Made by a program: the position numbers and the translations under genes. Under the pieces are notes generated by a model. The model did not search any database. It worked only from the letters and a program-made list of their open reading frames with translations, and had not been told where the DNA came from. A stretch of 40,971 nt of DNA, taken from positions 1 to 40,971 of IMG/VR virus record IMGVR_UViG_3300044976_000016; one strand, given 5' to 3'. Position 1 is the stretch's first letter. Each line of letters starts with the position of its first letter. This DNA comes from a virus (lineage: Duplodnaviria > Caudoviricetes). Positions 4,631 to 34,536 of this stretch are shown here, in pieces.

Positions 4631-5695
4631 ATGGGCAACGCGATCACCGACCTCCTGCAAGGCGCAAGTAACGCTGCGGCGTCCAACGTCAGCGGCCCGG
4701 TTGACCTGTTCGCTGCTGCGCTTCGTGCTCTTGGCGTGCCTGTTCCTGAGAACGCGCTTCTCGGCTCGAAGTGGATGGAGGAGCGTGGGCTGACGAAGAA
4801 GCCGCAGAATGCGCTGATGGGCCTGCTGGGTGAGGCTGCCGGGCTGTCTGCTCCGATTGCCGCAGCGGCGAAGGCGCCGCAGATCGCGGCGGGGCTGCTG
4901 AAGCACGCTGACCAGTTCCAAGCCTACAACAAGGCTCTAGGGCCTGCTGGCGCTTCTCAGGCTGTGGTGTGGCACGGTTCGCCGCACAAGTTCGACAAGT
5001 TCGACTCTGCGCACATTGGGAAGGGCGAGGGGGCGCAGGCGTATGGGCATGGGCTGTATCTGGCTGAGTCGCCTGGGGTGGCTGGTTCATATGCAAAGAT
5101 GAACCCTGCGAGCACGGTAAAAGTTCAGCGCGTTTGGCCGTCGCGCGAACACCCAAACGGGGCGTATGAGGCGCTCATGGTGCGTGATAGCGGCCCCCTT
5201 GAAGAGCTTGGGGTGTTTGCGTCAAGGGCAGAAGCTGAAGCCGCGGCGCAGGCCGCCCGTGAATCTGCCAGCAACATCTACAAAGTAGACCTCCCCGACC
5301 CCCTAATAGCGCGGATGCTCGATTGGGATAAGCCGCTGCACAAACAGTCTGCGGAAGTGCAGCAGGCGATCAAAGATTTTGAGCCGATGCTGAAGGCGGC
5401 CGGCATGACAGACCCAAATGGCGGAACGTCTGGATTGCTTGGGAAAGGACTGTATGAGGCTCTTGGCTATGCGATGCGCAGCAAGGCGATAGAGCGCGGC
5501 ACTACGGCTGGCACGACATTGCAGCAGATGCAGGACAACTCATCCCGCGCACTACGGGCGGCCGGCATCCCCGGCATTCGCTACCTAGACAGCGGCAGCA
5601 GAGGCGCAGGCGCAGGCACTAGCAATTTCGTCGTCTTCCCGGGCGAGGAGAACGCGCTGCGCATCTTGGAGCGCAACGGTAGGCCGCTGCCATGA
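4631..5695 (+). CDS. Protein with ADP-ribosyltransferase-like domain of polyvalent proteins (ART-PolyVal-like)
   Basis: Motifs VWHGSPHKFDKF, GEGAQAYGHGLYLAE, IYKVDL, GIPGIRYLD..SR...NFVVF; SD GAGG upstream. Confidence 0.7.
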   Translation: MGNAITDLLQGASNAAASNVSGPVDLFAAALRALGVPVPENALLGSKWMEERGLTKKPQNALMGLLGEAAGLSAPIAAAAKAPQIAAGLLKHADQFQAYNKALGPAGASQAVVWHGSPHKFDKFDSAHIGKGEGAQAYGHGLYLAESPGVAGSYAKMNPASTVKVQRVWPSREHPNGAYEALMVRDSGPLEELGVFASRAEAEAAAQAARESASNIYKVDLPDPLIARMLDWDKPLHKQSAEVQQAIKDFEPMLKAAGMTDPNGGTSGLLGKGLYEALGYAMRSKAIERGTTAGTTLQQMQDNSSRALRAAGIPGIRYLDSGSRGAGAGTSNFVVFPGEENALRILERNGRPLP

Positions 5696-5937
5696 TGCCG
5701 CACCCGACGCGCTTGTATTGGGACGGCGCCAAGGGTTCGGCGTGGTTTCGCGGCACCGGTGTAAAGCTGCATGAACCGCCGGCCCCGTGGGGTGAGCCGC
5801 TTGCTTATGTGGAATACACCCCGCTAGGAAGCTCCACGATTGCAGAAGTGCGAGACCGGGCGATTGACTCTGTGCGACAAATGCGGCAGGACGAGATTGC
5901 GAAGGTGCTGCTGTTCCTCGGCAAGTTGTGCGGGTAG
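5692..5937 (+). CDS. Hypothetical protein; last gene of the rightward operon
   Basis: ATGA-coupled 81-aa ORF. Confidence 0.55.
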   Translation: MMPHPTRLYWDGAKGSAWFRGTGVKLHEPPAPWGEPLAYVEYTPLGSSTIAEVRDRAIDSVRQMRQDEIAKVLLFLGKLCG

Positions 5938-5943
5938 ACCTTG

Positions 5944-5962
5944 CGGCCAATCCTCGTTGGGC
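5944..5962 (+). mobile_element. attI-like simple site 1 (CGGCCAA-TCCTC-GTTGGGC)
   Basis: GTTRRRY core with no attC hairpin; preceded by a 16-bp motif repeated at 6483. Confidence 0.4.
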
Positions 5963-6175
5963 GTCATTCGAGGCAAGGCACAGCCAACGGGTACGCCCTT
6001 TGAACTTTCGCCAGATCGAAGGGGGCTCCAGGGTTCCCCACCCACTCAAAGTGAGCCTTGCGCAGTCTGTTGCGAGTCACGCGCACAAGCTGCGTTTTAA
6101 TCCACGGCAGCGACTAGATCGCCAAGCCGGGCAAAGCGGGTGCAGGTCACCCCTCGGCTTGCCCCTTGCCTGCTC

Positions 6176-6194
6176 TGTCTAGAACGTGTTAGCC
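6176..6194 (+). mobile_element. attI-like simple site 2 (TGTCTAG-AACGT-GTTAGCC)
   Basis: GTT core contains the TAA stop of the minus-strand gene; L-like box resembles that of site 4. Confidence 0.45.
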
Positions 6195-6461
6195 AAGCCG
6201 GCGCCACGGGCGATCCGCCCACCAAGCGCCAAGGCAAAACAGGACGCTGGTTCGACCATGCCGCTCGAAGACAGCTTCTCCTTCTTGCTGCCACTCAACT
6301 ACGCGATCCACGTCGTCCGCCAGCCTCTCGATTGCGTCTGCCGCTTCGCTCAGTGCAACGCTGTGCGGGTCGTCCTGCCCACTAGCAAGGAATCGCAGAC
6401 GTTCCACCAATGCCCGATCTGGCTCCGTGGGCCTGCGGTCGTCTTCCGTCTTCTCATCCAT
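6189..6461 (-). CDS. Hypothetical protein (MDEKTEDD...EAADAIERL)
   Basis: ORF with phage-type coiled-coil motif; stop lies within a GTT core. Confidence 0.55.
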   Translation of the reverse strand: MDEKTEDDRRPTEPDRALVERLRFLASGQDDPHSVALSEAADAIERLADDVDRVVEWQQEGEAVFERHGRTSVLFCLGAWWADRPWRRLG

Positions 6462-6502
6462 CGTCAGCCCTTTCGCGTGTAACGGGTAGACCTTGCGGGA
6501 TC

Positions 6503-6521
6503 GGTTCAACCCCTGTTCGGC
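6503..6521 (+). mobile_element. attI-like simple site 3 (GGTTCAA-CCCCT-GTTCGGC)
   Basis: GTT core at a gene end (…GPNRG*); preceded by the 16-bp repeat. Confidence 0.4.
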
Positions 6522-6880
6522 CCTATGGCCGCAGCAGCGAGCCTGTACATGCGCCGCGCTAGCTCTATTGCGTACGCTTCTTGTGCATGCACTGGCTCGC
6601 CGCATTCAGCGCCGGCCCACTCCTCTGCAATCTCGTGCAGCGCGCGGCGCAGCCGCTCTATCTCGGCCTTTGCATCGCGCAGCATGGCGGGGCTCGGCAT
6701 GTGATCGCCCCTAGCCGCCTCCGCTGCTGGGCGCCACCGCTCGCGCTCTGCGGCCATGGCGGAATCGAGCGCGGCTTGGTCGTACACCGGCCCCCATTCG
6801 CTGACGCTACTGTGGCTTGGCACGCGCTTGCGGAAGATCCAGCTATCTAGCCAGCGCCACCCGCAGGGCTGTACGTTCAT
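6506..6880 (-). CDS. Hypothetical protein (MNVQPCGWRW...AAERERW...EIERLR)
   Basis: SD-like GAAGGGG before ATG; phage early-region motifs. Confidence 0.6.
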   Translation of the reverse strand: MNVQPCGWRWLDSWIFRKRVPSHSSVSEWGPVYDQAALDSAMAAERERWRPAAEAARGDHMPSPAMLRDAKAEIERLRRALHEIAEEWAGAECGEPVHAQEAYAIELARRMYRLAAAAIGPNRG

Positions 6881-6890
6881 GTGATCCCCT

Positions 6891-7181
6891 TCATTGCAGC
6901 GCCCGGCTTCCGAGATGGTGAGGAACTTGGCGCGAAAGCCAGCGCAAGCACTGCTTGAGCGTGCCGCAGTATTCGACCTCGCCTGTCTCCATGTCCCGCA
7001 GCCGGCACGATGTGTAGCCAAGGCGCGGCTCGATCTGCCACTCCCGCCCACCGTGATGGCGAAGGTCAAGCGGTATCACGTCGCGCTCGTCGATGATTGG
7101 CTCGCGGTCTGGGATGCCGATGGAACGCTCATAGTCGGCGCGGTGCTCGGCCCAGCGGAGGGGGCGTTTGGGATTATGCAT
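6891..7181 (-). CDS. Hypothetical protein
   Basis: 96-aa ORF fitting between neighbours on the operon strand. Confidence 0.55.
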   Translation of the reverse strand: MHNPKRPLRWAEHRADYERSIGIPDREPIIDERDVIPLDLRHHGGREWQIEPRLGYTSCRLRDMETGEVEYCGTLKQCLRWLSRQVPHHLGSRALQ

Positions 7182-7202
7182 GGCGGCAAAGTTGCGCGAC
7201 GT

Positions 7203-7221
7203 TGCCTAAAACACGTTAGGC
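7203..7221 (+). mobile_element. attI-like simple site 4 (TGCCTAA-AACAC-GTTAGGC), heading the attC array
   Basis: Resembles the class 1 attI core CCCTAAAACAAAGTT (one base shorter); its R end matches R'' of the next attC at 9/10. Confidence 0.55.
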
Positions 7222-7646
7222 CCGCTTCTCTTGCGAGCCGCCAAGTCTATGAACGCTTGGCAGTTCGTCGCGTCGCACGGCGTGTGATGCCTATGATCCG
7301 GGTCTTCAATCTCCACGCACGCGCCTTGGCCGTCTTCGCACTTGTGCGCGCACTGCACGATGGTTTGCCACCGCTCGCGCTCTGCGGCCACGGCTTCATC
7401 TATCCGGCGTTGCCACTCAATCGGGTGTCCGACCGCCTCAAGTGCGCCAGAGCACTCGCCCAGTTCGGAGCGCAGGCGGTCAATCTCGTCTGCAGCTGCG
7501 TCGGCCTCATCAATCAGCACTTGCAGCGCGTGCATGGCCGGGCGCGTGTTCGTGAACGTGTAGCGCATCACCTCGTTCACGGCTTCGCGCAACGGGCCCA
7601 ACCCGTCAGTCAACCGGACCTTGGCCGGCGTTGCTTGGTCAGTCAT
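7206..7646 (-). CDS. Cassette A hypothetical protein (MTDQATPAKVRLTDGLGP...GPNVF)
   Basis: SD AGGAG and ATG lie in the loop of attC 7596-7690. Confidence 0.65.
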   Translation of the reverse strand: MTDQATPAKVRLTDGLGPLREAVNEVMRYTFTNTRPAMHALQVLIDEADAAADEIDRLRSELGECSGALEAVGHPIEWQRRIDEAVAAERERWQTIVQCAHKCEDGQGACVEIEDPDHRHHTPCDATNCQAFIDLAARKRSGPNVF

Positions 7647-7690
7647 CGTTGCTCCTGTTGCGGCCAAGGCCGGTTACTTCTACGTTGTGC
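7596..7690 (+). mobile_element. attC-like site 1
   Basis: GCCCAAC-CCGTC-AGT(C)AACCGG(A)CCTTGGCCG...CGGCCAAGGCCGGTTACT-TCTAC-GTTGTGC. Confidence 0.85.
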
Positions 7691-7697
7691 CCCAGCC

Positions 7698-8552
7698 TTA
7701 CGCCACTGCCAGGACATGCCCACGCGGCACCTTGAAACCGGCCGCCTTGGCGTGCCCACCACCGCCGTACTGCTTCGCCACCTCCGACACGTCCACGCCT
7801 TCGTCGGTGGCGCGCAGGCCGAACACGCGGCCCTCGGCCGTGTCCCAGTAGCAGGCCGCGAACGGCTCGCCCTGCGCCATTAGGTGCGCCGCGTCGCTCA
7901 CCAGCGTGTAGGGCAGGCTGGCCACCGGCACGTCATAGGCGCCGATCACCATGCGCCGCTTGCACACCGCGACCAGCTCGGCCACATCCTTGTGGTGCTT
8001 GCGCTCGATGGCGGCGCCCGCCGCGGTCATCTTCAGCAGTTCCACCTGATCGGCGCTCATCAGCTTGTCCCACAACTCGAAGCTGTATTCGTGCGAGAAC
8101 ACGAACGCCTGAATCTCGCGCGTGCCCGGCAGCTTGAAGCGCCACAGGTCGCGGTCCTCCACATGGCCCAGCAGCAGCGGGCGGTCTTCGCCGGGGAAAA
8201 GGTAGTCCCAGGCCAGCGTGGCGCCGCTGCGGTTCAGGTCGGTGAAATGCGCCAGTTGCTTCGGCTCGCCGGTCCACGAGTCCTGCATGAACAGCGGCTG
8301 CAGGTCTTCGATGGCGGTCTTGTGGTGGTCGATCAGGCACACGCTGTTGGCCTCGGCCAGCATGCGCTCCACCACCGCGCGCTTGTAGCTGAAGTCCACC
8401 AAGAACACGTCGCGCCCGCGCACGTCGGGCGGGTCTTGCTGGTACACGCCGGCCACGTAGTCAGCGCCGGTGCCGTACTTCCGCCAGAAGCACCAGGCGG
8501 CGCTGAAGCCGTCCGCGCAGTTGCCGTGGTAGATCACAAGGGGTCGGTTCAC
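7698..8552 (-). CDS. DHH/DHHA1-family phosphoesterase (NrnB/oligoribonuclease-like), cassette B
   Basis: Motifs YHGNCADG, LVDF, IDHH, EDRDLW, GGGGH..AAGF; SD AAGGA before GTG. Confidence 0.85.
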   Translation of the reverse strand: MNRPLVIYHGNCADGFSAAWCFWRKYGTGADYVAGVYQQDPPDVRGRDVFLVDFSYKRAVVERMLAEANSVCLIDHHKTAIEDLQPLFMQDSWTGEPKQLAHFTDLNRSGATLAWDYLFPGEDRPLLLGHVEDRDLWRFKLPGTREIQAFVFSHEYSFELWDKLMSADQVELLKMTAAGAAIERKHHKDVAELVAVCKRRMVIGAYDVPVASLPYTLVSDAAHLMAQGEPFAACYWDTAEGRVFGLRATDEGVDVSEVAKQYGGGGHAKAAGFKVPRGHVLAVA

Positions 8553-8582
8553 TCGTCTTTCCTTTGGCTTCGGGTGAGAGGG

Positions 8583-8640
8583 GCACAACCCCTCAGTCAA
8601 CGCGACGGCCTACGGCCGCGCGTTACTTCGATCGTTAGGC
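8583..8640 (+). mobile_element. attC-like site 2 (58 bp)
   Basis: GCACAAC-CCCTC-AGT(C)AACGCG(A)CGGCC-TAC-GGCCGCGCGTTACT-TCGATC-GTTAGGC; same architecture as aadA-type 59-base elements. Confidence 0.9.
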
Positions 8641-8642
8641 GT

Positions 8643-8840
8643 CTATTCGTCCTGCATAGATTTCAGCCCCATCGATTCGCGCAGCATCCGTTCCACCTGA
8701 AACAGTGCTTCACGAACCGCGCCAATTTCGTCCACGCTGTACGTCACCAAGTGGCTGGCGTCTTTGTAGCCTTCCCACTTGACCGTGCCGGAGTCAAGGC
8801 GGCGGCGCTTTCCAGTGCGAATCTGAATTTCAATGTCCAT
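8643..8840 (-). CDS. Cassette C hypothetical protein (MDIEIQIRTGKRRR...)
   Basis: Single ORF filling the cassette; stop 2 bp from R'. Confidence 0.6.
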   Translation of the reverse strand: MDIEIQIRTGKRRRLDSGTVKWEGYKDASHLVTYSVDEIGAVREALFQVERMLRESMGLKSMQDE

Positions 8841-8869
8841 CGTCGTTTTCCGTGTTCGTTCACCAAGAC

Positions 8870-8932
8870 GCCTAACTGTCGCTTCGAGCGGACGGCCCCC
8901 AAGGGGCCGCGCGCTCAAGCTAATCGTTAGGC
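8870..8932 (+). mobile_element. attC-like site 3
   Basis: GCCTAAC-TGTC-GCTT(C)GAGCGG(A)CGGCCCC-CAA-GGGGCCGCGCGCTCAAGC-TAATC-GTTAGGC. Confidence 0.88.
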
Positions 8933-8940
8933 CACGCAAT

Positions 8941-9138
8941 TCAGTAGTCGCGCGCCCGTGCCGCAGCTTCGCGGCTCTCTTTGGTGCTCGTCAGCGCCTG
9001 GGAATACATAGCCGCGTACCCATTGGATGCCGGCTCCACAGCAACGCCTCCGGCCGGCGTCCAGCCGCGATCCAGCAACTCATTCACCTTCAGCTCAAGC
9101 TCGCTTGGCCCGTAGCCGGTAGCAATCTGGTAGTCCAT
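8941..9138 (-). CDS. Cassette D small protein, DUF1737-like
   Basis: Pattern Y.I.....L...VNE.L..GW...GG....Y.QA; SD AGGAG. Confidence 0.6.
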   Translation of the reverse strand: MDYQIATGYGPSELELKVNELLDRGWTPAGGVAVEPASNGYAAMYSQALTSTKESREAAARARDY

Positions 9139-9165
9139 CGTTCTCTCCTTCGGCCACCATGCGTG

Positions 9166-9252
9166 GCCTAACCCGTCACTCCAAGCGGACGCCCGGCGGC
9201 ATCCGCGCCCTTCGGCCCTGCCGTGCAGGCGCCGCTTAGTTCTGCGTTCGGC
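9166..9252 (+). mobile_element. attC-like site 4
   Basis: GCCTAAC-CCGTC-ACT(CC)AAGCGG(A)CGCC...GGCGCCGCTTAGT-TCTGC-GTTCGGC. Confidence 0.85.
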
Positions 9253-9253
9253 T

Positions 9254-9633
9254 TCACTTCTGCGCGCCGACGCTCATGAACGGCACAGGGTGCTAGGCAC
9301 GATGGAATAGCGCACGGTTAGGCTTGTCTTCACGGGTTGCGTGTCGCTCGTGGCGCCGTCCGCCTCCTTAACGTCTGCCTGTTCGGCGCGGATGTTGAAA
9401 ATGCTCAGTGCCTGCCAGGGCGCGATGAGCGTGAACCCATCGTTCTCGATGCCCTTGATCGCTCCCCCGACGGTGATGACGCCGCGGTGCCCTGTCGGCA
9501 CGGTGCGAATCGGCCAGAACATCACCAGCAGGACCAGCAGCACGAACACAGCCATGCCGTCGCGCACCAACGGGAATACGCGAACGGCATTCCCGCGCGG
9601 GGTTGCTTCAAGGTATCGATTCAGAAAGCTCAT
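9254..9633 (-). pseudogene. SPFH/prohibitin (band 7) gene with apparent internal deletion, cassette E
   Basis: TM helix then TVPTGHRGV...APWQ...TSDTQPV...VRY breaks off at ~110 aa; an out-of-frame tail PVPFMSVGAQK* ends next to R'. Confidence 0.65.
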
Positions 9634-9667
9634 TCATTCCTCCAGTTGTGGCTTCGTTGTGGGTGAA

Positions 9668-9724
9668 GCCGAACCCATCGCTGAACGGGACGCCTAGCGG
9701 CGCCCGTTAGCTCCACCGTTAGGC
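9668..9724 (+). mobile_element. attC-like site 5 (57 bp)
   Basis: GCCGAAC-CCATC-GCT(G)AACGGG(A)CGCC-TAGC-GGCGCCCGTTAGC-TCCACC-GTTAGGC. Confidence 0.9.
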
Positions 9725-9964
9725 GTCGAAGTCATCGCGCGCCGGTTTGTTGATTTGACGCTCCGCTTTGTGGGTGCGCCGCTTGTGGTGCTTCCCGCCT
9801 CGTGGCGACAAAGTGCCGCCCGCCTTGTTGTAGGGCCGCGCGCTCCAGTATTCGTAGCCGGTGCCTTTGGGCTCCTTGCAGGTGCGTTTCCTCGCGCTCA
9901 CGACGCCTAACCTTTCGCTCAAGGGCGACCCAGCACGGCGGGTCGCGTTGTCACGCTTCGGCAC
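9719..9964 (-). CDS. Cassette F small basic protein (…KGTGYEYWSARP…HKAERQ)
   Basis: TAA stop inside R' of site 5; start uncertain (GTG in the attC 6 loop or near 9901). Confidence 0.55.
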   Translation of the reverse strand: MPKRDNATRRAGSPLSERLGVVSARKRTCKEPKGTGYEYWSARPYNKAGGTLSPRGGKHHKRRTHKAERQINKPARDDFDA

Positions 9965-10006
9965 GGCCCGTGCGCCGTGCTGATCGCCTTAGCTCAATCG
10001 TTAGGC
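9905..10006 (+). mobile_element. attC-like site 6
   Basis: GCCTAAC-CTTTC-GCT(C)AAGGGCGACCCAGCACGGCG...CGCCGTGCTGATCGCCTTAGC-TCAATC-GTTAGGC. Confidence 0.85.
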
Positions 10007-10375
10007 CCGCTCCAGCCATCGGCTAGCCAGAAACGCCACCGCTGCGGCCTTGTGCTCGTGCTTTGGCGCGAAGGAGCCCTGAATCACCTGCAGGTGCCGC
10101 ATCGCCTTCCGCAGGTCGATTCCCGCCCTCGGCGTCGGCGCTTGCTTCAGTCCGCAGTAAAACCACTCAGCCTGCCATTGCGCCCACGGGTGCGCGCTGC
10201 ACTTGAACTCGTCAGGAATCTGGCTGTACTCAGGCATCAGTTTCAGGGCGCGCGCCGGGAACGCGCAGTCGGCATCTGTCACATCATGCGGCGTGTCAAA
10301 GTCCGCGCGCTCCGGCTCCAGCCGCCCAACCCCTCGGTGAACGGCGACGCCCGCCGGCTGGTCACTCTTGCTCAT
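10001..10375 (-). CDS. Cassette G phage-type hypothetical protein (…SFAPKHEHKAAAVAFL)
   Basis: SD AGGAGG and ATG in the attC 7 loop; TAA stop in R' of site 6. Confidence 0.7.
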   Translation of the reverse strand: MSKSDQPAGVAVHRGVGRLEPERADFDTPHDVTDADCAFPARALKLMPEYSQIPDEFKCSAHPWAQWQAEWFYCGLKQAPTPRAGIDLRKAMRHLQVIQGSFAPKHEHKAAAVAFLASRWLERA

Positions 10376-10425
10376 CTGCCACCTCCTGCGCGGCCGTCGG
10401 TCGCGCGTTACCTCGAACGTTGGGC
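10324..10425 (+). mobile_element. attC-like site 7 (imperfect inner stem)
   Basis: GCCCAAC-CCCTC-GGT(G)AACG...CGTTACC-TCGAAC-GTTGGGC. Confidence 0.75.
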
Positions 10426-10622
10426 GTCTTACTGCGCACCGACTCAAGCGCTCCGCAACGCGGGCAGAGCTCATCGGCGGCGCCGTATGCTGCGCGGCAG
10501 TGCGCGCACTCGTATCCAGTAACCTGCTTACTGGTTTGCGGCTTATCCAGCAACCCAGGTTGCTGCCTTGCGGCCTGCCGTGCGGCATCGCGCCGCGCGT
10601 GATCTGTGGTGTACCAGCTCAT
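10362..10622 (-). CDS. Zinc-ribbon protein (CAHC...CPRC); C-terminus reads through the attC 7 right arm
   Basis: Two CxxC pairs; ATGA-coupled to the upstream gene; ends KTPNVRGN... Confidence 0.6.
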   Translation of the reverse strand: MSWYTTDHARRDAARQAARQQPGLLDKPQTSKQVTGYECAHCRAAYGAADELCPRCGALESVRSKTPNVRGNARPTAAQEVADEQE

Positions 10623-10807
10623 GTGTCGTCCCATTCCAGCATCCAGTGCGGCATTGCCACTCGCGCCATCATCCACTCCGGCCACGCCCGCACTTCGCGC
10701 TGCGCTGCCGTTATCTGCGCCAGTAGAGCCGCGCGCTTCGGACACGGCCGCCCAACACGCCGTTCGAGCCGAGGCGCAACGGCAGCTTTTCGCTTCGGGT
10801 CAGTCAT
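10619..10807 (-). CDS. Cassette H hypothetical protein (MTDPKRKAAVAPRLERRVGRP...)
   Basis: ATG in the loop of attC 8; N-terminus encoded by the attC arm. Confidence 0.55.
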   Translation of the reverse strand: MTDPKRKAAVAPRLERRVGRPCPKRAALLAQITAAQREVRAWPEWMMARVAMPHWMLEWDDT

Positions 10808-10837
10808 CGCGCGCCCGGCTCAACGGCAACGTTGGGC
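10750..10837 (+). mobile_element. attC-like site 8
   Basis: GCCCAAC-ACGC-CGTT(C)GAGCCG(A)GGCGC...GCGCCCGGCTCAACG-GCAAC-GTTGGGC. Confidence 0.85.
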
Positions 10838-10977
10838 GTCTTGCTGCACACGGCCCGCGCCACGTTAAGCGCTCTGAGCTTCGCGTCGATGTCGGCAACC
10901 GGCTCGCGCATGAAGTCGATGGTGATGCCGTGCTCATGGCCCTGCGCTTCCGGGTCGCGGCAAGCCGCGCCGTGCAA

Positions 10978-10996
10978 CTTAGCTCCCACGTTAGGC
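10978..10996 (+). mobile_element. attC right half-site (L' CTTAGC-TCCCAC-R' GTTAGGC); left arm missing
   Basis: Same L'/R' spacing as sites 5 and 6; contains the TAA of gene 10991..11218. Confidence 0.6.
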
Positions 10997-11218
10997 CCTG
11001 CGCACTGCGGCTGTGCAGTCCCATCCCACATTTTCACTGGGCTTCACTCCGCGCCGTCTGCACTCTGTCATGTAGTGCGCAAGCGCCTGGTCTGCAGCAT
11101 GGTCGAGTGCCGCCTGCCAGCAGCGGCGCAATCGCCGCGTCTCTAGGTCGTCGTCGCTCGGCAGGTACTTTCCACCGCGACACTCTGCTTCCCACTTAGC
11201 CCACTCATCAAATTTCAT
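10991..11218 (-). CDS. Hypothetical protein (MKFDEWAKWE...RCWQAAL)
   Basis: SD GAGGA; stop lies in the R' box. Confidence 0.6.
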   Translation of the reverse strand: MKFDEWAKWEAECRGGKYLPSDDDLETRRLRRCWQAALDHAADQALAHYMTECRRRGVKPSENVGWDCTAAVRRA

Positions 11219-11258
11219 GTTGTCCTCGCTGTAGGTGCGCTGTTAAGCGGACTGCCTG

Positions 11259-11281
11259 CGTTAACATTGCGCTCAAGCGGA
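11259..11281 (+). mobile_element. attC left half-site (CGTTAAC-ATTGC-GCT(C)AAGCGG(A)); right arm missing
   Basis: R''/L'' spacing as in site 6; lies within a 31-aa minus-strand ORF 11215..11310 (MSEPTQAVGAPLERNV...). Confidence 0.5.
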
Positions 11282-11313
11282 GCACCAACGGCCTGGGTAG
11301 GTTCACTCATTTC

Positions 11314-11532
11314 TCAGGCCTTCAATTCAAAGCGCAATCGGTCAACGAAGTCTGCGCACTCGTTTCTGTAGCGCGCCCATCCCGCGTAAGGCGTGGGAGG
11401 CTGCTTGGGAAGCGCTTGCAAAATGCGCGTCACCAACGGGCGATCGTCTTCCTGTAGTGGGCGCACTTCCGCGCGCTCCGGCGCCAGGCCGAACCCTGCG
11501 TTCGAGCCGTTCAGCAGCATCGGGCGCTTCAC
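11314..11532 (-). CDS. Hypothetical protein
   Basis: GTGA-coupled chain in the early-left operon. Confidence 0.5.
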   Translation of the reverse strand: MKRPMLLNGSNAGFGLAPERAEVRPLQEDDRPLVTRILQALPKQPPTPYAGWARYRNECADFVDRLRFELKA

Positions 11533-11699
11533 GAAAACATCCCTCGCTCGATCGGCAAGCCTTCTTCTACCATGCGCGCAGCCTCGCGCAGCGCCCAGGC
11601 AATCGCGGCGCGGTCGTCTTTGCTGCTCCCGGCGTCACTCACGCTCACGTCCAGTTCGCCATCGTCGTCGTGCTGAATCACTACCGTGTACGTGCTCAT
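11529..11699 (-). CDS. Hypothetical protein (MSTYTVVIQHDDDG...)
   Basis: Purine-rich RBS; coupled to neighbours. Confidence 0.55.
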   Translation of the reverse strand: MSTYTVVIQHDDDGELDVSVSDAGSSKDDRAAIAWALREAARMVEEGLPIERGMFS

Positions 11700-11713
11700 G
11701 TTTTCTCTCTTCG

Positions 11714-12160
11714 TTACGCCCGCTGGCTCAGGTGATGCTTTGACCACGGCCCGCGGATCATCCTCTCGAATCTCTCGCGCGCCTCGGGATTGTGGTCGAT
11801 GTCGGCGCGGCTATCGACTCCGCAGATCATGCGAACGACACATGCTGCGCGGTCTGCACCGCTGCCGGCTTGGAATGCGTGCGTAACCTCCTCGCACGCT
11901 TCCAGATATGTGTCCGACAGCCACAACTGAAACTCCAGCTCGTTGCACCGCATGCCGAGCCATTTGGAAATCTCGCCGCCCTTCGGCTTCTCGGGCTTTT
12001 CAACGACGGTAAGCAGCCGCGCGAGAGCGATAGGCGTTCCGGGGGCGCCGAATAGCCGGAAGCCGTCCTGCGCGTGGCGCGGCTCGATGTCGCAGACGAT
12101 CCTAAGCGTTCCGTCGGCCATCGTCTGAAGGCGCACGGTGGAGGCTTCGATTGCGCTCAT
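11714..12160 (-). CDS. Phage hypothetical protein (…TMADGTLRIVCDIEP…CGVDSRADID)
   Basis: ATGA-coupled; composition typical of lambdoid early proteins. Confidence 0.65.
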   Translation of the reverse strand: MSAIEASTVRLQTMADGTLRIVCDIEPRHAQDGFRLFGAPGTPIALARLLTVVEKPEKPKGGEISKWLGMRCNELEFQLWLSDTYLEACEEVTHAFQAGSGADRAACVVRMICGVDSRADIDHNPEARERFERMIRGPWSKHHLSQRA

Positions 12161-12429
12161 GGCATCGGCCTTTCGGGACGCATGCACTTCCCGGCGTGAG
12201 AGCAGTGCGGTTGCCATATGCAATCGTGTTCACTCGCGCATTTGCGGCTGCTCTCGATGGCGAGCGCATCGCGCAATCGCTCAATCTCCGCGTCTGCTGA
12301 CAGCGTCAGTTCGGCCGCAGCGTGGCGGGCGTCTCGGTGGCCGTACTTGTAGCCACGGCAGAAGGCGTCGGATTCAGCGCCAGCATCCACATTGTCCGGC
12401 AGGTTCATGATCTGTCTGTGAAGGCTCAT
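12157..12429 (-). CDS. Hypothetical protein (MSLHRQIMNL…GHRDARHAAAE)
   Basis: ATGA-coupled. Confidence 0.6.
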   Translation of the reverse strand: MSLHRQIMNLPDNVDAGAESDAFCRGYKYGHRDARHAAAELTLSADAEIERLRDALAIESSRKCASEHDCIWQPHCSHAGKCMRPERPMP

Positions 12430-12728
12430 GTCTGCACCATCGCAGCAGCAGCGCGCACGATTGCGCGGCGTGTGGCGGCGCCGACGTTCTCCGCGCCTTT
12501 AAATGGCTCTTGAACTTCGACCGCTTCACATTGCGTATCCTTGCCGGGGTAGCCCCATACCTCTGTGTATCGGCTATGCCCGATGTCCACAGTAAGGCTC
12601 AGTTCCACCGCAAGACGCAGCGCATCACCGTCGTCGGTTAGCGGGTTCCACTTGCCGTGCGACAGGAGATTCTCGTACTCCACGCCAGCCGCCTTAGCGG
12701 CCCTCTCCAGCAGTTCGCGGTCTGTCAT
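12426..12728 (-). CDS. Phage hypothetical protein (MTDRELLERAAKAAG…WNPLTDDGDALRLAV…ATRRAIVRAAA)
   Basis: Recognisable widespread phage motif set; SD GGAG. Confidence 0.75.
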   Translation of the reverse strand: MTDRELLERAAKAAGVEYENLLSHGKWNPLTDDGDALRLAVELSLTVDIGHSRYTEVWGYPGKDTQCEAVEVQEPFKGAENVGAATRRAIVRAAAAMVQT

Positions 12729-12763
12729 AACTTCATCTCCCCGATAACGACGAGGCTTGGGCA

Positions 12764-13096
12764 TCACGCCACCATCGCCTGCATGGCCTGCTGCAGCGCC
12801 TTCGCGCGCTCGCGGTGCCTGCTCTGCCGCTCGGCATGCGTTCGCGGTGCGGGCCGGGGCGCGTTGCGTCCCTTGCCCAGCTTGTACGCCCGGAGCGTCC
12901 GTCGGCCTCGGGTGTCCTCGTGCCACGCGGCAACATGGATCAGCCCGCGAGCGAACAACGTGGCGATGTAGCGCCGCGTCGTGGTGTAGCTGACGCCTGT
13001 CTCGTCGCTGATGTCCACCACCGACACGGGTCCGTGCATCAGGGCTTCGATCATGATGGCCGACGACAGGTGATTGAGAGTTGACGGTCGTTTCAT
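12764..13096 (-). CDS. Winged-helix DNA-binding protein
   Basis: SVVDISDETGVSYTTTRRYI HTH followed by IHVAAW…YKLG wing. Confidence 0.65.
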   Translation of the reverse strand: MKRPSTLNHLSSAIMIEALMHGPVSVVDISDETGVSYTTTRRYIATLFARGLIHVAAWHEDTRGRRTLRAYKLGKGRNAPRPAPRTHAERQSRHRERAKALQQAMQAMVA

Positions 13097-13803
13097 GCCG
13101 CCTCTTTCGCCGGATTGGCCTTGATGAACGCCCGCAAGCGGGACTCAGGTGTGGAACCGCCGCCGGGGCCTTTCAGGAAGCCCCACACACACATCTTTTC
13201 CTCGTTCGTCGGCAGCGAGTAGTAGCCCTTCGCGGCTTCCAGTTCGCGGCCGGATGTGAACAGGTCCAGCATGTCGGCGGCGTACACCTCAAGCTCGTCA
13301 ACACGCTCCTGAGTCAAGCCGTCCATGCGCTCGATGCGCTCCTGATCCCGCCAGTGCTTGTCAGCGGACGCGACGTACTTGGAGTCATCCCACATGCCCG
13401 AGAAGATGTCGCCAGCGAAGCCGAGGTAACTCGCGCACTTCACCAGCGCGTCGGTGACGGACTTCTTTGGCGCGTCCTCGTCCACCATCAGCCCGCCGTC
13501 GCTTTTCTTGTACGTGGCCTTCGTCTGCCCGATCTGCTGCAACTCCCCGCGCTTGCCGTCGAGCACGTACCAAAGCGACACGACGGCGATGTGCAGGGTG
13601 TCGGTGTCGGTCAGGCGCTCCATGCGCTCACTGGCGATCTGGAAGCCCCAGCCGATGCCGCATGGCCCGAACTCGTCGGTCAGGCGCTCGACGATCCAGT
13701 ACGGTTTCGGACTGTTGCCCTTGTACTGCTTGCCGGTGATCGGCTTTACCGCCTTCGGGTCGGTGGTGAAGGCGCGTTCCCACAGTGCCTTATTCGGGTT
13801 CAC
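13093..13803 (-). CDS. Rad52/Sak-like single-strand annealing protein
   Basis: Motifs LTDEFGPCGIGWG, DEDAPKKSVTDALVKCASYLGFAGDIF, DDSKY. Confidence 0.75.
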   Translation of the reverse strand: MNPNKALWERAFTTDPKAVKPITGKQYKGNSPKPYWIVERLTDEFGPCGIGWGFQIASERMERLTDTDTLHIAVVSLWYVLDGKRGELQQIGQTKATYKKSDGGLMVDEDAPKKSVTDALVKCASYLGFAGDIFSGMWDDSKYVASADKHWRDQERIERMDGLTQERVDELEVYAADMLDLFTSGRELEAAKGYYSLPTNEEKMCVWGFLKGPGGGSTPESRLRAFIKANPAKEAA

Positions 13804-13921
13804 GCATGCTCTCCTGTTGCTCGCACTGAGCAGTGATGATTGCCTCGCGCTGGTATTCCTCGGCCAGCACATCTAGGATGGATTCGAGCGCCGCTTCGAC
13901 GGCTTCGTCTTCGTCGTTCAT
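13790..13921 (-). CDS. Small acidic protein (MNDEDEAVEAALES…)
   Basis: ATGA-coupled; very acidic. Confidence 0.45.
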   Translation of the reverse strand: MNDEDEAVEAALESILDVLAEEYQREAIITAQCEQQESMREPE

Positions 13922-14145
13922 TGCCACGCCCACCGCGCCCACTCGAAGAGGCGCCACAGCCCAGCGACGGCCAGCACCACGCCGCAGACAGCGAAGGGCC
14001 AGACAATCGCGCCGCGACCTTCGACGGGATCGTCCTGGCCGATGTCCGTAGCAGCCTCGGCGTAGCACTGGCCGGGGCTCTGGCACTCGGTGCGGCCTTG
14101 CCAGCAGTCGCCGCGGCAGCCTGTGAAGCGCATGGCCGGGCTCAC
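13918..14145 (-). CDS. Small Cys-containing membrane protein
   Basis: CxxxCxQGRxxC motif plus C-terminal TM helix; coupled. Confidence 0.5.
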   Translation of the reverse strand: MSPAMRFTGCRGDCWQGRTECQSPGQCYAEAATDIGQDDPVEGRGAIVWPFAVCGVVLAVAGLWRLFEWARWAWQ

Positions 14146-14321
14146 GACAGCCACCCCACAGCGACAGCAGCGAGGACAGCGACGAGGCCGACAGCGATGA
14201 GCAGATCGGTAATCGCGTGGCGGCGCTCGAAGCTATAGACGGCATAGGCGCTATCGACCGTGCTGGCTCCGGTGCGAGGCGCATAGCGCCAGCGCCTCCA
14301 GTGCGTGTCCTTGGGGCTCAT
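14142..14321 (-). CDS. Small membrane protein (MSPKDTHWRRWRY…LLIAVGLVAVLAAVAVGWLS)
   Basis: Read manually; overlapping stop/start at both ends. Confidence 0.5.
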   Translation of the reverse strand: MSPKDTHWRRWRYAPRTGASTVDSAYAVYSFERRHAITDLLIAVGLVAVLAAVAVGWLS

Positions 14322-14545
14322 TGCTTGCCCTCCGCTTTGGCGATGGCATACCGTGCCATTTCGGCCATGTTCTCAGCCAGCAACTCGGCCAACTGCTCGC
14401 ACAGATCGCGCAGTGCTTCGCACTCTGTGGGTCCGCGACCGGTGGGGCCGTTTGCCTCGCCCTCATCGGCCTTGAGATATGCCATCCAGTCGTACATCGT
14501 GGTAGGCACGGGAGGGCGCACGTAGGATGTGACGATGAGGCTCAT
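14318..14545 (-). CDS. Hypothetical protein (…PPVPTTMYDWMA…G.GPTE.EAL.DL)
   Basis: SD GGAGG, ATGA coupling; phage-type motif. Confidence 0.65.
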   Translation of the reverse strand: MSLIVTSYVRPPVPTTMYDWMAYLKADEGEANGPTGRGPTECEALRDLCEQLAELLAENMAEMARYAIAKAEGKQ

Positions 14546-14745
14546 TGCTTGCCCTCCGCTATCTCGCACTGATCCGTTGCGTCGAGCAGCATCTGCGCCA
14601 GCGCTCGCGCCTTCGCGGGCGGTAGCCGCACGCCTCCGCTCATCGGGCCGGCGAACAGGTGAAACCAAACGGTCTTGTTGTCAGGCCTGGCGGAGAAGTC
14701 CCATTCGACTTCGTGGGGCAGATTGATAATGATGTGCTTCGTCAT
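14542..14745 (-). CDS. Hypothetical protein
   Basis: ATGA-coupled. Confidence 0.55.
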   Translation of the reverse strand: MTKHIIINLPHEVEWDFSARPDNKTVWFHLFAGPMSGGVRLPPAKARALAQMLLDATDQCEIAEGKQ

Positions 14746-15299
14746 GCCGCCCCCTGGTCTTCCGCTGCGCTGATCGCCGCCTCTTCCGCGGCCTCGGCTG
14801 CCTCGCCTTCGAGCCGGAGCGTGATCGCATCGACCAGTTCATCGGCCAGCGTATCGCCAGCGTTGTCCCCGAAGGCCTCCGCGGGCGCCATCCACTCGCC
14901 ACCGAACCAGATCAGCAGGTCATCGATCTCGCTGCTCGTGCGACCGTGCAGGTCTTCGTCCACGTAGAACGACACGAGCACGTGCATGTCGGCCTTGCCG
15001 AGCGTGACGGTGTGGCGCTCGTAGTGCTGCCACCGCGGCCCGATGGGCTTCGGCGGGTGCTTCATCGCGTCCAACTCCGCGCGGAGGTGGCGGGCTTCGG
15101 CGGTCATCTCCCCGACCGTGCCTGCGAGCCGCGCGATGCGCTGGGCGTCGCTCTCGACGTGCGCGGGGTACTGAGCCCGCTCGCCGGTCAGCGGCGGAAC
15201 CTGCGCCCAGCGGTGCTCCAGCATGCGGGCGCTGCCGGTGGGCTCGTTGCCAGGAATGTCGGCGGTTGTGACGCCGGGCGGCATGTTCCAGGTGCTCAT
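14742..15299 (-). CDS. First gene of the early-left operon (MSTWNMPPGVT..DIPGN), acidic C-terminus
   Basis: SD GGAGG; directly downstream of the pL-like promoter. Confidence 0.65.
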   Translation of the reverse strand: MSTWNMPPGVTTADIPGNEPTGSARMLEHRWAQVPPLTGERAQYPAHVESDAQRIARLAGTVGEMTAEARHLRAELDAMKHPPKPIGPRWQHYERHTVTLGKADMHVLVSFYVDEDLHGRTSSEIDDLLIWFGGEWMAPAEAFGDNAGDTLADELVDAITLRLEGEAAEAAEEAAISAAEDQGAA

Positions 15300-15357
15300 C
15301 GCTGCATCCCTCCGCGCCGCTGACTCCCACGAGCCACATTGCGACGCGATGGAAGAG

Positions 15358-15386
15358 ATTAGACAAGGCTGACCAAGGCTTGTCAA
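15358..15386 (-). promoter_or_regulatory. pL-like sigma70 promoter (TTGACA-17-TCTAAT) with TTAGACA/TGTCTAA operator-like boxes
   Basis: Perfect -35 and 17-bp spacer; TTAGACA recurs inverted at ~15396 and at ~15723 in pR. Confidence 0.7.
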
Positions 15387-15435
15387 TACAAAACTGTCTA
15401 ATCCCGACAAAAATACAAGGGATTGCGGGGCCTAC

Positions 15436-15741
15436 TCAAGGCGCCCGGTACAGCAGTTCCCACGCCCGCAGGCCGCATCCTGCCGCAATTTCTTCCAGCT
15501 TGTCCAGCGTCACGGCATGCTGGCCTTTCGCGGCCCTGGCGATCAGCCGCACATCAAGCCCGCGAGCCATGGCCCAGGCACGCACGCTAGGGCGCTTCCC
15601 ACGCGGTGTGTCGGCCGCGATCATCCGCCGCAAATTTGCGGCAAGAATGGCTCGAGCCGACTCGTGATGCAGAAAAAGACCGCGCGGCTTAGTATGGTAT
15701 GAATGTTGAAAAACTTGCACTCTTAGACAGGATTGCCGCAC
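15436..15741 (-). CDS. Short XRE-family HTH repressor (CI-like); start uncertain
   Basis: ILAANLRRM…VTLDKLEEIAAGCGLRAWELL; divergent from the cro-like gene; no peptidase domain. Confidence 0.7.
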   Translation of the reverse strand: MRQSCLRVQVFQHSYHTKPRGLFLHHESARAILAANLRRMIAADTPRGKRPSVRAWAMARGLDVRLIARAAKGQHAVTLDKLEEIAAGCGLRAWELLYRAP

Positions 15742-15744
15742 AAT
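15715..15744 (+). promoter_or_regulatory. pR-like promoter (TTGCAC-18-CACAAT), probably giving a leaderless cro mRNA
   Basis: -10 ends 6 nt before ATG 15751; no SD; TTAGACA box in the spacer. Confidence 0.55.
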
Positions 15745-15750
15745 GCTCCC

Positions 15751-15948
15751 ATGTTGACACGAGAGTCTTTGGCCGATCTGTTGCGCGATGTGCGCGTCAT
15801 TGATGTTGCCCGCGAAGCCGCGGTCTGCACGAAGACGATCTATCGCCTACGGCACCAGGCACACGCGCCCACCCTCACCACGCTGGAGCGTGTGCTCAAG
15901 GCAGTTGAGCGCGTCAAAGAGCGCAAGGCCGCGCCTGATGCTGCTTGA
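15751..15948 (+). CDS. Cro-like HTH protein
   Basis: VIDVAREAAVCTKTIYRLR…PTLTTLERV. Confidence 0.75.
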   Translation: MLTRESLADLLRDVRVIDVAREAAVCTKTIYRLRHQAHAPTLTTLERVLKAVERVKERKAAPDAA

Positions 15949-16165
15949 CGCCATGGCCCCGTGCCAGGGTCGTCACATCGCTGTGAGCAATCGGCATGCC
16001 GGTATCTGCATCGGCTGCGCACGCTGGCACCCGCGCACGCGCTCGCCGCGAGCGATCGAGCCCGCAGCGGCCCAAGACGCGGAAGGCGTCTATCAGTGCA
16101 TCAACAGGCGCAGCAGTGGACATCCGGTCACTGTGGACCTCGAACAGTCGGCGTCACATCCCTAA
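15938..16165 (+). CDS. Small Cys-rich hypothetical protein
   Basis: Overlaps the cro stop; C…CxxCxR…C pattern. Confidence 0.45.
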   Translation: MLLDAMAPCQGRHIAVSNRHAGICIGCARWHPRTRSPRAIEPAAAQDAEGVYQCINRRSSGHPVTVDLEQSASHP

Positions 16166-16207
16166 CTCTCGGCATGTGGCAATAAACAGCATTCGGAGAA
16201 GTCGGGA

Positions 16208-16441
16208 ATGGTCGAACTCAAGCCTTGCCCCTTCTGCGCCGCCGATGGCGAGTGGATGATGGACCTGTTTGACACGTTCGACGCCGGCCACATCGCATAC
16301 GTCCGATGCGGTCGATGCGACTCCGCTGGGCCGAGCAAGTATTCCGAGGTCAGCGCGCAGGACGCGGCCAATGAAGCGCGGGTCATGTGGAACCGGAGGT
16401 GCCGTAGGCAATCCTCGTGCCCTCCGCTTTCCTGTCGTTGA
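16208..16441 (+). CDS. Lar-family (restriction alleviation-like) zinc-ribbon protein
   Basis: ELKPCPFC…VRCGRC…GP…A…WNRR signature. Confidence 0.7.
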   Translation: MVELKPCPFCAADGEWMMDLFDTFDAGHIAYVRCGRCDSAGPSKYSEVSAQDAANEARVMWNRRCRRQSSCPPLSCR

Positions 16442-34529: not shown

Positions 34530-34536
34530 GACGGAC

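What the first reader, a model, noticed from the sequence alone, without database searches (positions are those of the whole stretch)
7203..11281. Integron-type attC cassette array built into a phage early operon, with no integron integrase
Seen: eight complete hairpins (7596-7690, 8583-8640, 8870-8932, 9166-9252, 9668-9724, 9905-10006, 10324-10425, 10750-10837) separate 1-2-gene units. Each has a ..AAC R'' box, a 4-5 bp spacer, an L'' box with an unpaired base, a variable loop, L', a 5-6 bp spacer and a GTT R' box. Six also have a second unpaired A further into the stem. Established: this is attC architecture, and unpaired top-strand C and A correspond to the bottom-strand extrahelical G and T read by IntI. 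The sites share structure but little sequence, as attC sites do. The cargo looks like phage early genes, and no tyrosine recombinase is visible in this apparently complete genome. Inference: the phage uses a host IntI in trans to acquire, excise and reorder accessory genes. I cannot confirm from here whether this has been described.
Basis: partly seen in the sequence, partly recalled or inferred. Interest (0 to 1): 0.92.

Follow-up and report, generated by a model that had tools for sequence, protein, structure and literature searches.

The report
Backwards integron cassette array in phage
This complete phage genome keeps eight small gene units between integron-type DNA hairpins, with the genes facing the opposite way to bacterial cassettes, behind a fixed entry site; it has no integrase, but other phages with the same layout carry their own, so it likely swaps accessory genes with a borrowed enzyme.

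Summary
The eight hairpins are real attC sites. A model trained only on bacterial attC sites hits all eight at the stated coordinates (43-54 bits; next best 17). The genome has no tyrosine recombinase.

(1) Cargo genes lie antisense to the sites (7 of 7 scored here; 131 against 1 in other viral contigs), and three start inside the hairpin loop. (2) Position 7204-7221 is a fixed entry site: in 7 related loci similarity stops just after its G|TT and the first cassette differs. (3) Unit ends match each other as in circular cassettes (118 against 19). (4) Other temperate phages carry the same backwards arrays beside a full integron integrase, next to xis and int; these integrases form their own clade.

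One attC with its built-in start codon is fused to 13 unrelated genes, which bears on how cassettes are made. Recombination itself is untested. Phage attC clusters are published (Qi 2023); the inverted layout, entry site and phage integrase clade were not found in print. This scan noted antisense arrays and entry sites before, on other DNA.

The parts
6177..6194 (+). Second entry-like site (same CTA-N6-G|TT geometry); holds the stop codon of gene 6189-6461
   Evidence: one exact match elsewhere, without an array; role not shown
6891..7181 (-). Conserved 96-aa gene in the position that intI holds in an integron; function unknown
   Evidence: 35 homologs at 59-78% identity; no Pfam or PHROG match; model pLDDT 83.5 without a clear fold match
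7179..7221 (+). Entry platform: 33 bp between the start codon of the 96-aa gene and the crossover G at 7215; attI-like core at 7204-7221; no hairpin
   Evidence: conserved in 7 of 7 homologous loci; similarity ends at 7221-7226 and the first cassette differs; same 16-mer in 6 other viral contigs; geometry as in host attI sites
7206..7646 (-). Cargo gene of unit 1 (146 aa); ribosome-binding site and ATG inside the loop of attC 7596-7690; stop codon inside the entry site
7596..7690 (+). attC 1 (95 nt, long class); the same site with its 17-codon leader is fused to unrelated genes in other phages
   Evidence: 50.6 bits
7698..8552 (-). Cargo gene of unit 2: DHH phosphoesterase; same cassette ends in L032, L035 and L036 with other neighbours
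   Evidence: phrog_4771 E 1e-103
8583..8640 (+). attC 2 (58 nt)
   Evidence: 52.7 bits
8643..8840 (-). Cargo gene of unit 3 (65 aa, no family match)
8870..8932 (+). attC 3 (63 nt)
   Evidence: 43.0 bits
8941..9138 (-). Cargo gene of unit 4 (65 aa, DUF1737-like, just under the cut-off)
9166..9252 (+). attC 4 (87 nt)
   Evidence: 53.9 bits
9274..9633 (-). Cargo gene of unit 5: SPFH/Band 7 protein cut short at its C-terminus
   Evidence: PF01145 profile positions 2-73 of 176
9668..9724 (+). attC 5 (57 nt)
   Evidence: 50.1 bits
9719..9901 (-). Cargo gene of unit 6 (60 aa); stop codon in the R' box
   Evidence: phrog_7399 E 1e-7
9905..10006 (+). attC 6 (102 nt)
   Evidence: 53.3 bits
10001..10375 (-). 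Cargo gene of unit 7 (124 aa); starts in the loop of attC 7 and stops in the R' box of attC 6
   Evidence: phrog_36680 E 7e-25
10324..10425 (+). attC 7 (102 nt)
   Evidence: 48.0 bits
10362..10807 (-). Two cargo genes of unit 8: 10619-10807 (starts in the loop of attC 8) and 10362-10622 (zinc-ribbon-like; reads into attC 7 and stops in its loop, over the next start)
10750..10837 (+). attC 8 (88 nt)
   Evidence: 46.8 bits
10934..10996 (+). Decayed ninth site: right arm (L' to R', 10977-10996) intact, left arm lost
   Evidence: 11.7 bits; 10830-10950 shared with L213 from the G|TT on
11259..11292 (+). Left half of an attC (R'', L'', start of stem) without a right arm; 22 nt identical to attC sites of a Rubrivivax chromosomal array
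11488..11507 (+). Further left half-site remnant

Best explanation
The region is an integron-type cassette array built backwards into the leftward early gene block of a phage that has no integrase gene, and it likely gains and loses cassettes at a fixed entry site with an integron integrase borrowed from the host cell. SHOWN: eight attC sites on one strand; genes on the other strand, co-oriented with the phage early genes; a conserved hairpin-free site at 7204-7221 where related phages join different first cassettes; unit ends that pair as in a circular cassette; other phages with the same layout plus intI, xis and int. INFERRED: IntI binds the folded bottom strands, excises units as circles (attC x attC) and inserts circles at the entry site (attC x attI). 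New cassettes would enter at the promoter-far end, and the oldest would decay at the promoter-near end (half-sites at 10977-11507). The genes would be read by run-through transcription from the early promoter near 15.4 kb; long attC loops would supply ribosome-binding site, start codon and a short leader, and the R' box often supplies the stop. The layout likely arose because intI was placed in line with the early transcript, which points attI and the array against it; this lineage would then have lost or replaced intI. The enzyme source is likely the host's chromosomal IntI (about 55 in 100, because the entry core resembles host attI) or an IntI-bearing prophage (about 45 in 100).
For: attC identity. 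Unpaired bases in 268 distinct phage sites: L'' base C 235, G 28, other 5; second bulge A in 160 of 161; neither identity was scored by the detector. This fits G16 and T23/24 of the bottom strand (PMC5027507, passages). Orientation: window 7 of 7 scored units antisense; 157 units of 47 viral loci give 131 antisense, 1 sense, 25 uncalled. 31 of 115 antisense protein families hit PHROGs; 0 of 13 sense-strand ORFs of the window hit Pfam. Own-end match: R'' plus flank fits the unit's own left end better than the R' beside it in 118 of 157 units, worse in 19, tie in 20; bacterial control 13 better, 1 worse, 2 ties of 16. In the window the circle form folds better for 6 of 8 units, the same for 1, worse for 1. 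Entry site; among 33 unselected motif hits in viral loci, 20 have a same-strand attC within 1.5 kb downstream and 2 have an opposite-strand attC that near. Breaks at G|TT in near-identical pairs: L110/L113 (99.93% over 6,035 nt), L186/L220, L179/L219, L244/L245. IntI-bearing phages: of 56 loci with at least 1.5 kb upstream, 35 have at least one attC; all 92 sites lie in integron polarity; units 38 antisense, 1 sense, 14 uncalled. 12 of 12 tested IntI pass the TIGR02249 cut-off; 5 of 5 tested downstream genes match excisionase families; 10 of 12 near-complete records have a second tyrosine recombinase. One sits at a tRNA-Leu in a Burkholderiales genome. An intermediate with an internally deleted intI exists. 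IntI1 recombines attC sites of other phages (PMC9892861).
Against: No recombination was tested. No excision joint in the one run, which is held as contigs. Not every break is at G|TT: L054/L055 part about 28 nt before an R'' inside a repeated stretch, and a unit shared by L186/L220 differs in its first 20 nt. Unit 7 of the window fits the neighbouring R' better than its own end, and unit 8 ties. The entry core differs from most phage attI sites beside intI, so descent from an intI-bearing phage is inferred, not shown. The same short site also ends a cassette in the middle of a Rubrivivax chromosomal array and of one phage array, so it is not always an array head. The orientation caller was trained on this phage's late genes and is weak on bacterial genes: controls gave 7 sense, 1 antisense (a phage contig), 8 uncalled, and 6 sense, 2 antisense, 10 uncalled of 18 (my reading, L322 left out). 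No sigma-70 promoter match was found for the early transcript. The host is unknown. 44 of the loci were fetched with an attC-like pattern and some are near-duplicates, so counts are not prevalence.
Confidence: 0.72

Rival explanations
1. Frozen relic: the array was built when an ancestor still had intI and no longer recombines; the sites persist because they now hold start codons, stop codons and leaders.
For: No intI in the genome; decayed half-sites on the right; a truncated SPFH gene; no joints in the run.
Against: All eight sites keep boxes and unpaired bases. The non-coding entry platform has 31 invariant columns of 71 among loci whose proteins are about 70% identical. Near-identical contigs differ by whole units at G|TT; those records show no IntI match but are only 24-29% complete in 3 of 4 cases.
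Confidence: 0.14
2. The hairpins are short homology linkers used by the phage's own single-strand annealing or exonuclease system (13093-13872) or by RecA, like boundary sequences of lambdoid phages (recalled, no call), without IntI.
For: A recombination-type gene lies in the same operon; one pair of relatives breaks inside a repeat and not at G|TT; some attC sites are 90% or more alike between phages.
Against: Pairing is kept while the letters change in L-box pairs, and the unpaired bases are those that IntI reads. Own-end complementarity, a hairpin-free entry site and linked intI in other phages are not predicted by homology-driven exchange. It may still act as a second route.
Confidence: 0.07
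3. The entry site serves mainly as the phage's attachment site: the phage has a repressor-cro-like switch but no integrase and uses host IntI to insert its whole genome into a chromosomal cassette array.
For: The site lies where attP lies in lambdoid layouts (recalled); 8 of 10 near-complete array-bearing, IntI-less records have no tyrosine recombinase; a cro-like gene is present; a Vibrio prophage excises between two attC sites (PMC9892861).
Against: No such prophage was found inside a bacterial array; IntI-bearing relatives have a separate int and integrate at tRNA genes; in 7 of 7 homologous loci the site is followed by phage-type sequence, with antisense arrays where enough DNA is held.
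Confidence: 0.05

Closest known systems
Phage CALINs and phage-borne integrons (Qi et al. 2023, PMC9892861; parts 1-4 of 7 of the text and part 1 of 2 of the supplement read)
   Same: attC clusters without integrase in phage genomes; 17 CALINs, 3 complete integrons and 1 In0 in 10,705 genomes; 5 of 6 tested phage attC sites recombine with attI1.
   Different: There the CALINs have 2-4 sites in the tables I saw, and the layouts described are canonical or mixed. In the two records I checked, genes and attC share a strand (M16-3, TJE1). Here there are 8 sites, all genes antisense, starts inside attC loops, a conserved entry site, and relatives with a phage clade of IntI. Their annotation file on Dryad was not seen.
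Sedentary chromosomal integrons of Burkholderiales (intI, attI, attC array)
   Same: Same attC type; same own-end complementarity; attI core with the same CTA-N6-G|TT spacing beside intI; one attC family on many unrelated genes.
   Different: Cassette genes there mostly lie in the attC direction and are read from Pc next to attI (PMC8946536, PMC5027507, passages). Here they are read towards the entry site from the far side. None of 14 long bacterial sites has a bottom-strand start signal, against 83 of 142 long phage sites.
CALIN elements of bacterial genomes (Cury et al. 2016, PMC4889954, passages)
   Same: At least two attC sites on one strand within 4 kb and no intI nearby; use by an integrase in trans was proposed there.
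   Different: No antisense cargo, entry site or phage context in the passages read.
Delta-attI-type cassettes (PMC12901181, abstract) and attG insertion (bioRxiv 10.1101/2022.09.11.507474, passages)
   Same: Cassettes bounded by attI-derived short sites, and IntI-driven insertion at simple double-stranded sites, show that such a site can be used and can end up inside an array.
   Different: Those concern mobile integrons and scattered chromosomal targets; here one site is fixed beside one gene across phages.

Membership tests
attC site | R'' (RYYYAAC) and R' (GTTRRRY) boxes with invariant AAC and GTT | tested here: met
   8 of 8; outer positions deviate in some, as the neighbour supplies R'
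attC site | L''/L' pairing with an extrahelical base at position 16, usually G on the bottom strand | tested here: met
   7 of 7 pairs in the 7 detected sites; bottom-strand G in six sites, C in two; 9166 has two extra bases; definition from PMC5027507
attC site | Second extrahelical T at position 23 or 24 of the bottom strand | tested here: met
   6 of 8 in the window; 160 of 161 bulges in other phage sites
attC site | Length 57-141 nt, spacers of 5-6 nt | tested here: met
   57-102 nt; 5/6 or 5/5 spacers
attC site | Hit by an attC covariance model | tested here: met
   own model from 27 bacterial sites, 8 of 8 at 43-54 bits; the IntegronFinder model was not available and Rfam gave no such family
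attC site | Bottom strand recombined by IntI | not testable with these tools
   needs a recombination assay
integron gene cassette | Unit moves as a whole, with breaks at G|TT | tested here: met
   DHH unit in L032, L035, L036; pairs; two exceptions
integron gene cassette | Unit ends rebuild a paired attC in the circular form | tested here: met
   6 of 8 better, 1 equal, 1 worse; 118 against 19 of 157 elsewhere
integron gene cassette (canonical) | Gene on the attC top strand, ahead of its attC | tested here: not met
   7 of 7 scored units antisense, and unit 1 likewise
CALIN | At least two attC sites on one strand within 4 kb | tested here: met
   definition
CALIN | No intI nearby | tested here: met
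   on a complete record
complete integron | intI gene next to the array | tested here: not met
   absent in the window and over the cut-off in 0 of 45 array-bearing records fetched through other features; met in other phages
complete integron | attI: hairpin-free site at the array head where cassettes enter | tested here: inconclusive
   position, conservation and change of first cassette fit; core spacing as in host attI; insertion not tested
complete integron | Pc promoter reading from attI into the array | tested here: inconclusive
   no sigma-70 match in 5600-16300; gene direction implies that Pc is not used

The most novel reading that the evidence does not exclude
Temperate phages of Burkholderiales run their own integron system: a phage-specific IntI clade placed before xis-int, backwards cassettes read by the early transcript, and integrase-less phages like this one that borrow the enzyme. 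New cassettes are made inside phages when a ready-made attC module, carrying ribosome-binding site, start codon and leader, is joined in frame to a captured piece of a phage gene, with one end copied into the other. That would expose the step of cassette creation that is unexplained for all integrons.
Probability: 0.4. Interest if true: 0.93.

Novelty: new variant of a known kind. Interest (0 to 1): 0.8.

Why it matters
Integrons are known as bacterial devices, and how a gene first becomes a cassette is called 'largely unknown' (PMC5371416, passage). Here ordinary phage genes occur both with and without cassette ends (DHH gene: attC beside it in 11 of 38 loci shown, with at least three different ends). 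One attC with its own start codon heads 13 unrelated gene bodies. That gives natural before-and-after pairs for testing cassette creation. It also names a site-specific mechanism for the mosaicism of phage early regions, whose cargo includes DNA methyltransferases, Mom-like and Lar-like genes. Finally it points to an IntI lineage that lives on phages and can be assayed in laboratory E. coli.

Tried and rejected
Rfam: no relevant family. GenBank phages: no close relative of the region; only DHH homologs; no match to attC 1. Reads: one run, possibly the source, contigs only, no joint at a G|TT; this cannot show absence. attC 1 was not found in 301 genomes of the Rubrivivax family (no positive control, so weak). 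The 96-aa gene as a recombinase or known fold: no family, Atlas hits at most 0.84, best Z 4.5, best Foldseek E 0.098; other arrays have other genes at that place, so it is not treated as a required part. Idea that a new cassette copies its neighbour's attC: 1 of 177 adjacent pairs at least 85% alike against 73 of 29,004 between arrays; single cases exist (L095, L179, L220) but no general rule. Idea that intI doubles as prophage integrase: rejected, as 10 of 12 near-complete records have a second tyrosine recombinase; a motif scan found no tRNA half within 900 nt of intI in 33 loci. Terminase check of IntI-bearing records was weak: 5 of 25 hit phrog_2; their viral nature rests on IMG/VR, excisionase hits and the tRNA-linked case. 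Virus Rctr41k has an IntI-like gene but another layout. Of 8 matches of the entry 18-mer in bacterial genomes, 4 were ordinary genes without attC and were set aside as chance. Lagging-strand explanation of the orientation: cumulative GC skew turns near 16.2 kb and 6 kb, which would put the bottom strand on the lagging template, where recombination is favoured (PMC5371416); the skew also follows gene direction, so this stays a possibility only. Promoter and terminator scans were uninformative.


Full report
Setting. The window is a complete 40,971-base IMG/VR virus record with a 71-nt terminal repeat. It has terminase, portal, scaffold, head and ejection genes on the + strand and a leftward block of small genes on the - strand from about 15.7 kb down to 6.2 kb, with a cro-like gene at the switch. 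No tyrosine recombinase or integron integrase is found in six frames, and no tRNA. GenBank phages hold no close relative.

My geometry detector finds 7 of the 8 and at most 1 site per shuffled genome (20 shuffles). Six sites have the second unpaired A. In 268 distinct sites from viral loci, the unpaired L'' base is C in 235 and G in 28, and the second bulge is A in 160 of 161. These are the bottom-strand G and T that IntI reads (PMC5027507, passages).

The genes are backwards. In integrons the gene lies on the attC top strand so that Pc can read it. Here all cargo genes lie on the other strand: 7 of 7 units between two attC sites, and unit 1 too. Five of the nine cargo genes match a family (DHH phosphoesterase, DUF1737-like just under its cut-off, SPFH fragment, two unnamed PHROGs), and a sixth has weak zinc-ribbon hits; none of 13 sense-strand ORFs does. 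In 157 distinct units from 47 other viral loci the count is 131 antisense, 1 sense, 25 uncalled, and 31 of 115 antisense families match PHROGs. The caller uses this phage's codon usage and is weak on bacterial genes (controls). Three window genes start inside an attC loop (7646, 10375, 10807), and three stop in an R' box. A ribosome-binding motif plus in-frame ATG lies in the loop on the bottom strand in 83 of 142 long phage sites, against 0 of 142 on the top strand, 0 of 126 short sites and 0 of 14 long bacterial sites.

The units behave as cassettes. If a unit was once a circle, its R'' should pair with the G|TT end at its own left border and not with the R' that now follows it. This holds for 118 of 157 viral units against 19 (20 ties), as in a bacterial control (13 against 1 of 16). 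In the window the circular junction folds better for 6 units, equally for 1 and worse for 1. The DHH unit recurs in L032, L035 and L036 with the same left end and other neighbours. Near-identical contigs part at G|TT: L110/L113 after 6,035 bases at 99.93%, L186/L220 and L179/L219 at their entry sites, L244/L245 right after a shared DHH cassette. Two breaks do not fit: L054/L055 part in a repeat before an R'', and one unit shared by L186/L220 differs in its first 20 bases. The one public run shows no excision joint.

The array has an entry site. The left end, 7204-7221, has no hairpin. Its 16-mer occurs in 6 other viral contigs; in 5 of them (2 nearly identical) a same-strand attC follows within 750 bases, and L112 has none detected. 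All 7 loci that carry a homolog of the adjoining 96-aa gene (two are the same sequence) keep the 33-base spacer and the core; similarity to the window stops at 7221-7226, the first cassette differs each time, and 1 to 11 attC sites follow in the 5 loci with enough DNA. Among 33 motif hits not selected by that pattern, 20 have a same-strand attC within 1.5 kb downstream. Seven of 32 bacterial loci show a core with the same spacing 130-175 bases from intI, and IntI is common in that family (65 of 151 genomes). The same short site also closes a cassette inside a Rubrivivax array, like the attI-derived cassette ends reported for mobile integrons (PMC12901181, abstract).

Where the integrase is. 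None of 45 array-bearing records fetched through cargo or site patterns has IntI over the cut-off, and 8 of the 10 near-complete ones have no tyrosine recombinase at all. One phage-like contig has an internally deleted intI beside its entry site, next to a tRNA fragment. That led to a search for IntI in viral contigs: 440 hits, 80 fetched. Of the 56 with at least 1.5 kb upstream, 35 have attC sites and 25 have two or more; all 92 sites lie in integron polarity, and the units are 38 antisense, 1 sense, 14 uncalled. Twelve of 12 tested proteins pass the IntI cut-off. The order is cassettes, attI, intI, excisionase-like gene (5 of 5 tested), and a second recombinase in 10 of 12 near-complete records. 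In a FastTree tree of 131 IntI, 54 of 68 viral sequences form one clade (support 0.999) with a single sequence from a bacterial genome, and that one is itself a prophage at tRNA-Leu in a Burkholderiales genome. Fourteen of the 15 distinct IntI with called antisense arrays fall in the clade. The closest bacterial IntI in 401 genomes of the order is 60% identical to the phage query. Bacterial sampling covers one order only. IntI-bearing and IntI-less phages share a DHH cassette type and long attC families (9 of 32 long sites at least 75% alike, against 0 of 14 bacterial).

How it likely works. IntI from elsewhere in the cell would excise units and insert circles at 7215; new units would sit furthest from the early promoter, and old ones would decay on the promoter side, where half-sites remain. 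In an integron intI points away from the array. If intI is laid in line with the early transcript, the array must face against it, and only backwards genes are expressed; this is my inference for the layout. The window's entry core is closer to host attI cores than to the usual phage attI, and attI and IntI are thought to co-evolve (PMC8946536, passage), so the host enzyme is slightly favoured for this phage. A 22-base half-site at 11271-11292 is identical to Rubrivivax attC sites, which fits a Burkholderiales host; the host is not identified.

A lead on cassette creation. The first attC, with its start signal and 17-codon leader, recurs at 77-97% identity in 15 other loci. Thirteen give full proteins; after the leader only one pair is homologous, so with the window there are 13 unrelated bodies. 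In most of them the two ends pair for a few bases beyond the shared box, with different letters in each (my reading). These loci were fetched with a pattern on the first 24 bases of the site, so the left arm is selected, the loop and right arm are not. The DHH gene has an attC beside it in 11 of the 38 loci displayed (38 of 80 fetched), with at least three different ends, and none in the rest. This suggests repeated conversion of phage genes into cassettes; the mechanism is not shown.

Known and new. Qi et al. 2023 (PMC9892861) describe phage CALINs and integrons and show that IntI1 uses phage attC sites. The text I read does not describe antisense arrays, loop start codons, a phage entry site or a phage IntI clade. 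Nine literature searches (listings and abstracts) showed no such report; the library lacks most subscription papers, and Qi's annotation file was not seen. Earlier notes of this scan describe antisense arrays in at least 13 other genomes and entry sites in several; a search for IntI beside excisionase returned no finding with all the words. I class it as a CALIN by definition and as a new variant of the integron: confirmed structure, strong comparative evidence of mobility, untested chemistry.

Noticed in passing
G003:C6 (L233:16270-17000): Phage-like contig with a tRNA 3' fragment, an ORF made of an IntI N-terminus fused to an integrase-like tail, an attI and antisense cassettes; it looks like an intermediate in loss of intI.
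   Followed up: partly
L345:1-6461 (G581:C13): Prophage edge in a Burkholderiales genome: antisense cassettes, attI, intI, excisionase-like gene, convergent integrase, tRNA-Leu, then host hpnC/D/E and thrC.
   Followed up: yes
L134 and L131 (Rubrivivax-type chromosomal arrays): A conserved cassette gene ends in the same short hairpin-free site as the window's entry site, in the middle of an array.
   Followed up: partly
L335: An integron outside the phage IntI clade has a first unit that scores strongly antisense and phage-like; it may show flow of phage cassettes into a bacterial array, or another prophage.
   Followed up: no
L017, L025: Arrays on both sides of the early region point in mirror directions, each against its own operon.
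   Followed up: partly
L095; L179; L220: Identical or near-identical attC copies flank single units (a DHH cassette in L095); not a general rule.
   Followed up: partly
window 9274-9633: The SPFH/Band 7 gene is cut short at the C-terminus inside an otherwise intact cassette.
   Followed up: no
window 6503-6521 and 16160-16180: Further box-like remnants: an L'-R'-like end left of the entry site, and an inverted R'-like box in the rightward operon.
   Followed up: no
window 15436-15948: Divergent repressor-like ORF (no family match) and cro-like gene, although the genome has no integrase or excisionase match; life style unclear.
   Followed up: partly
window 30556-35052 and 4631-5695: Late region holds a TPR protein, a radical SAM/SPASM protein and a methyltransferase between head and virion genes, and an ADP-ribosyltransferase-like domain (ART-PolyVal, under the cut-off).
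   Followed up: no
window 16208-16441: Lar-like restriction alleviation gene in the rightward operon, without attC; related genes are cassette cargo in other phages.
   Followed up: no
L314 (KX853513, Virus Rctr41k): IntI-like gene annotated xerD with four long attC-like sites downstream in the gene direction: a different phage-borne layout.
   Followed up: partly
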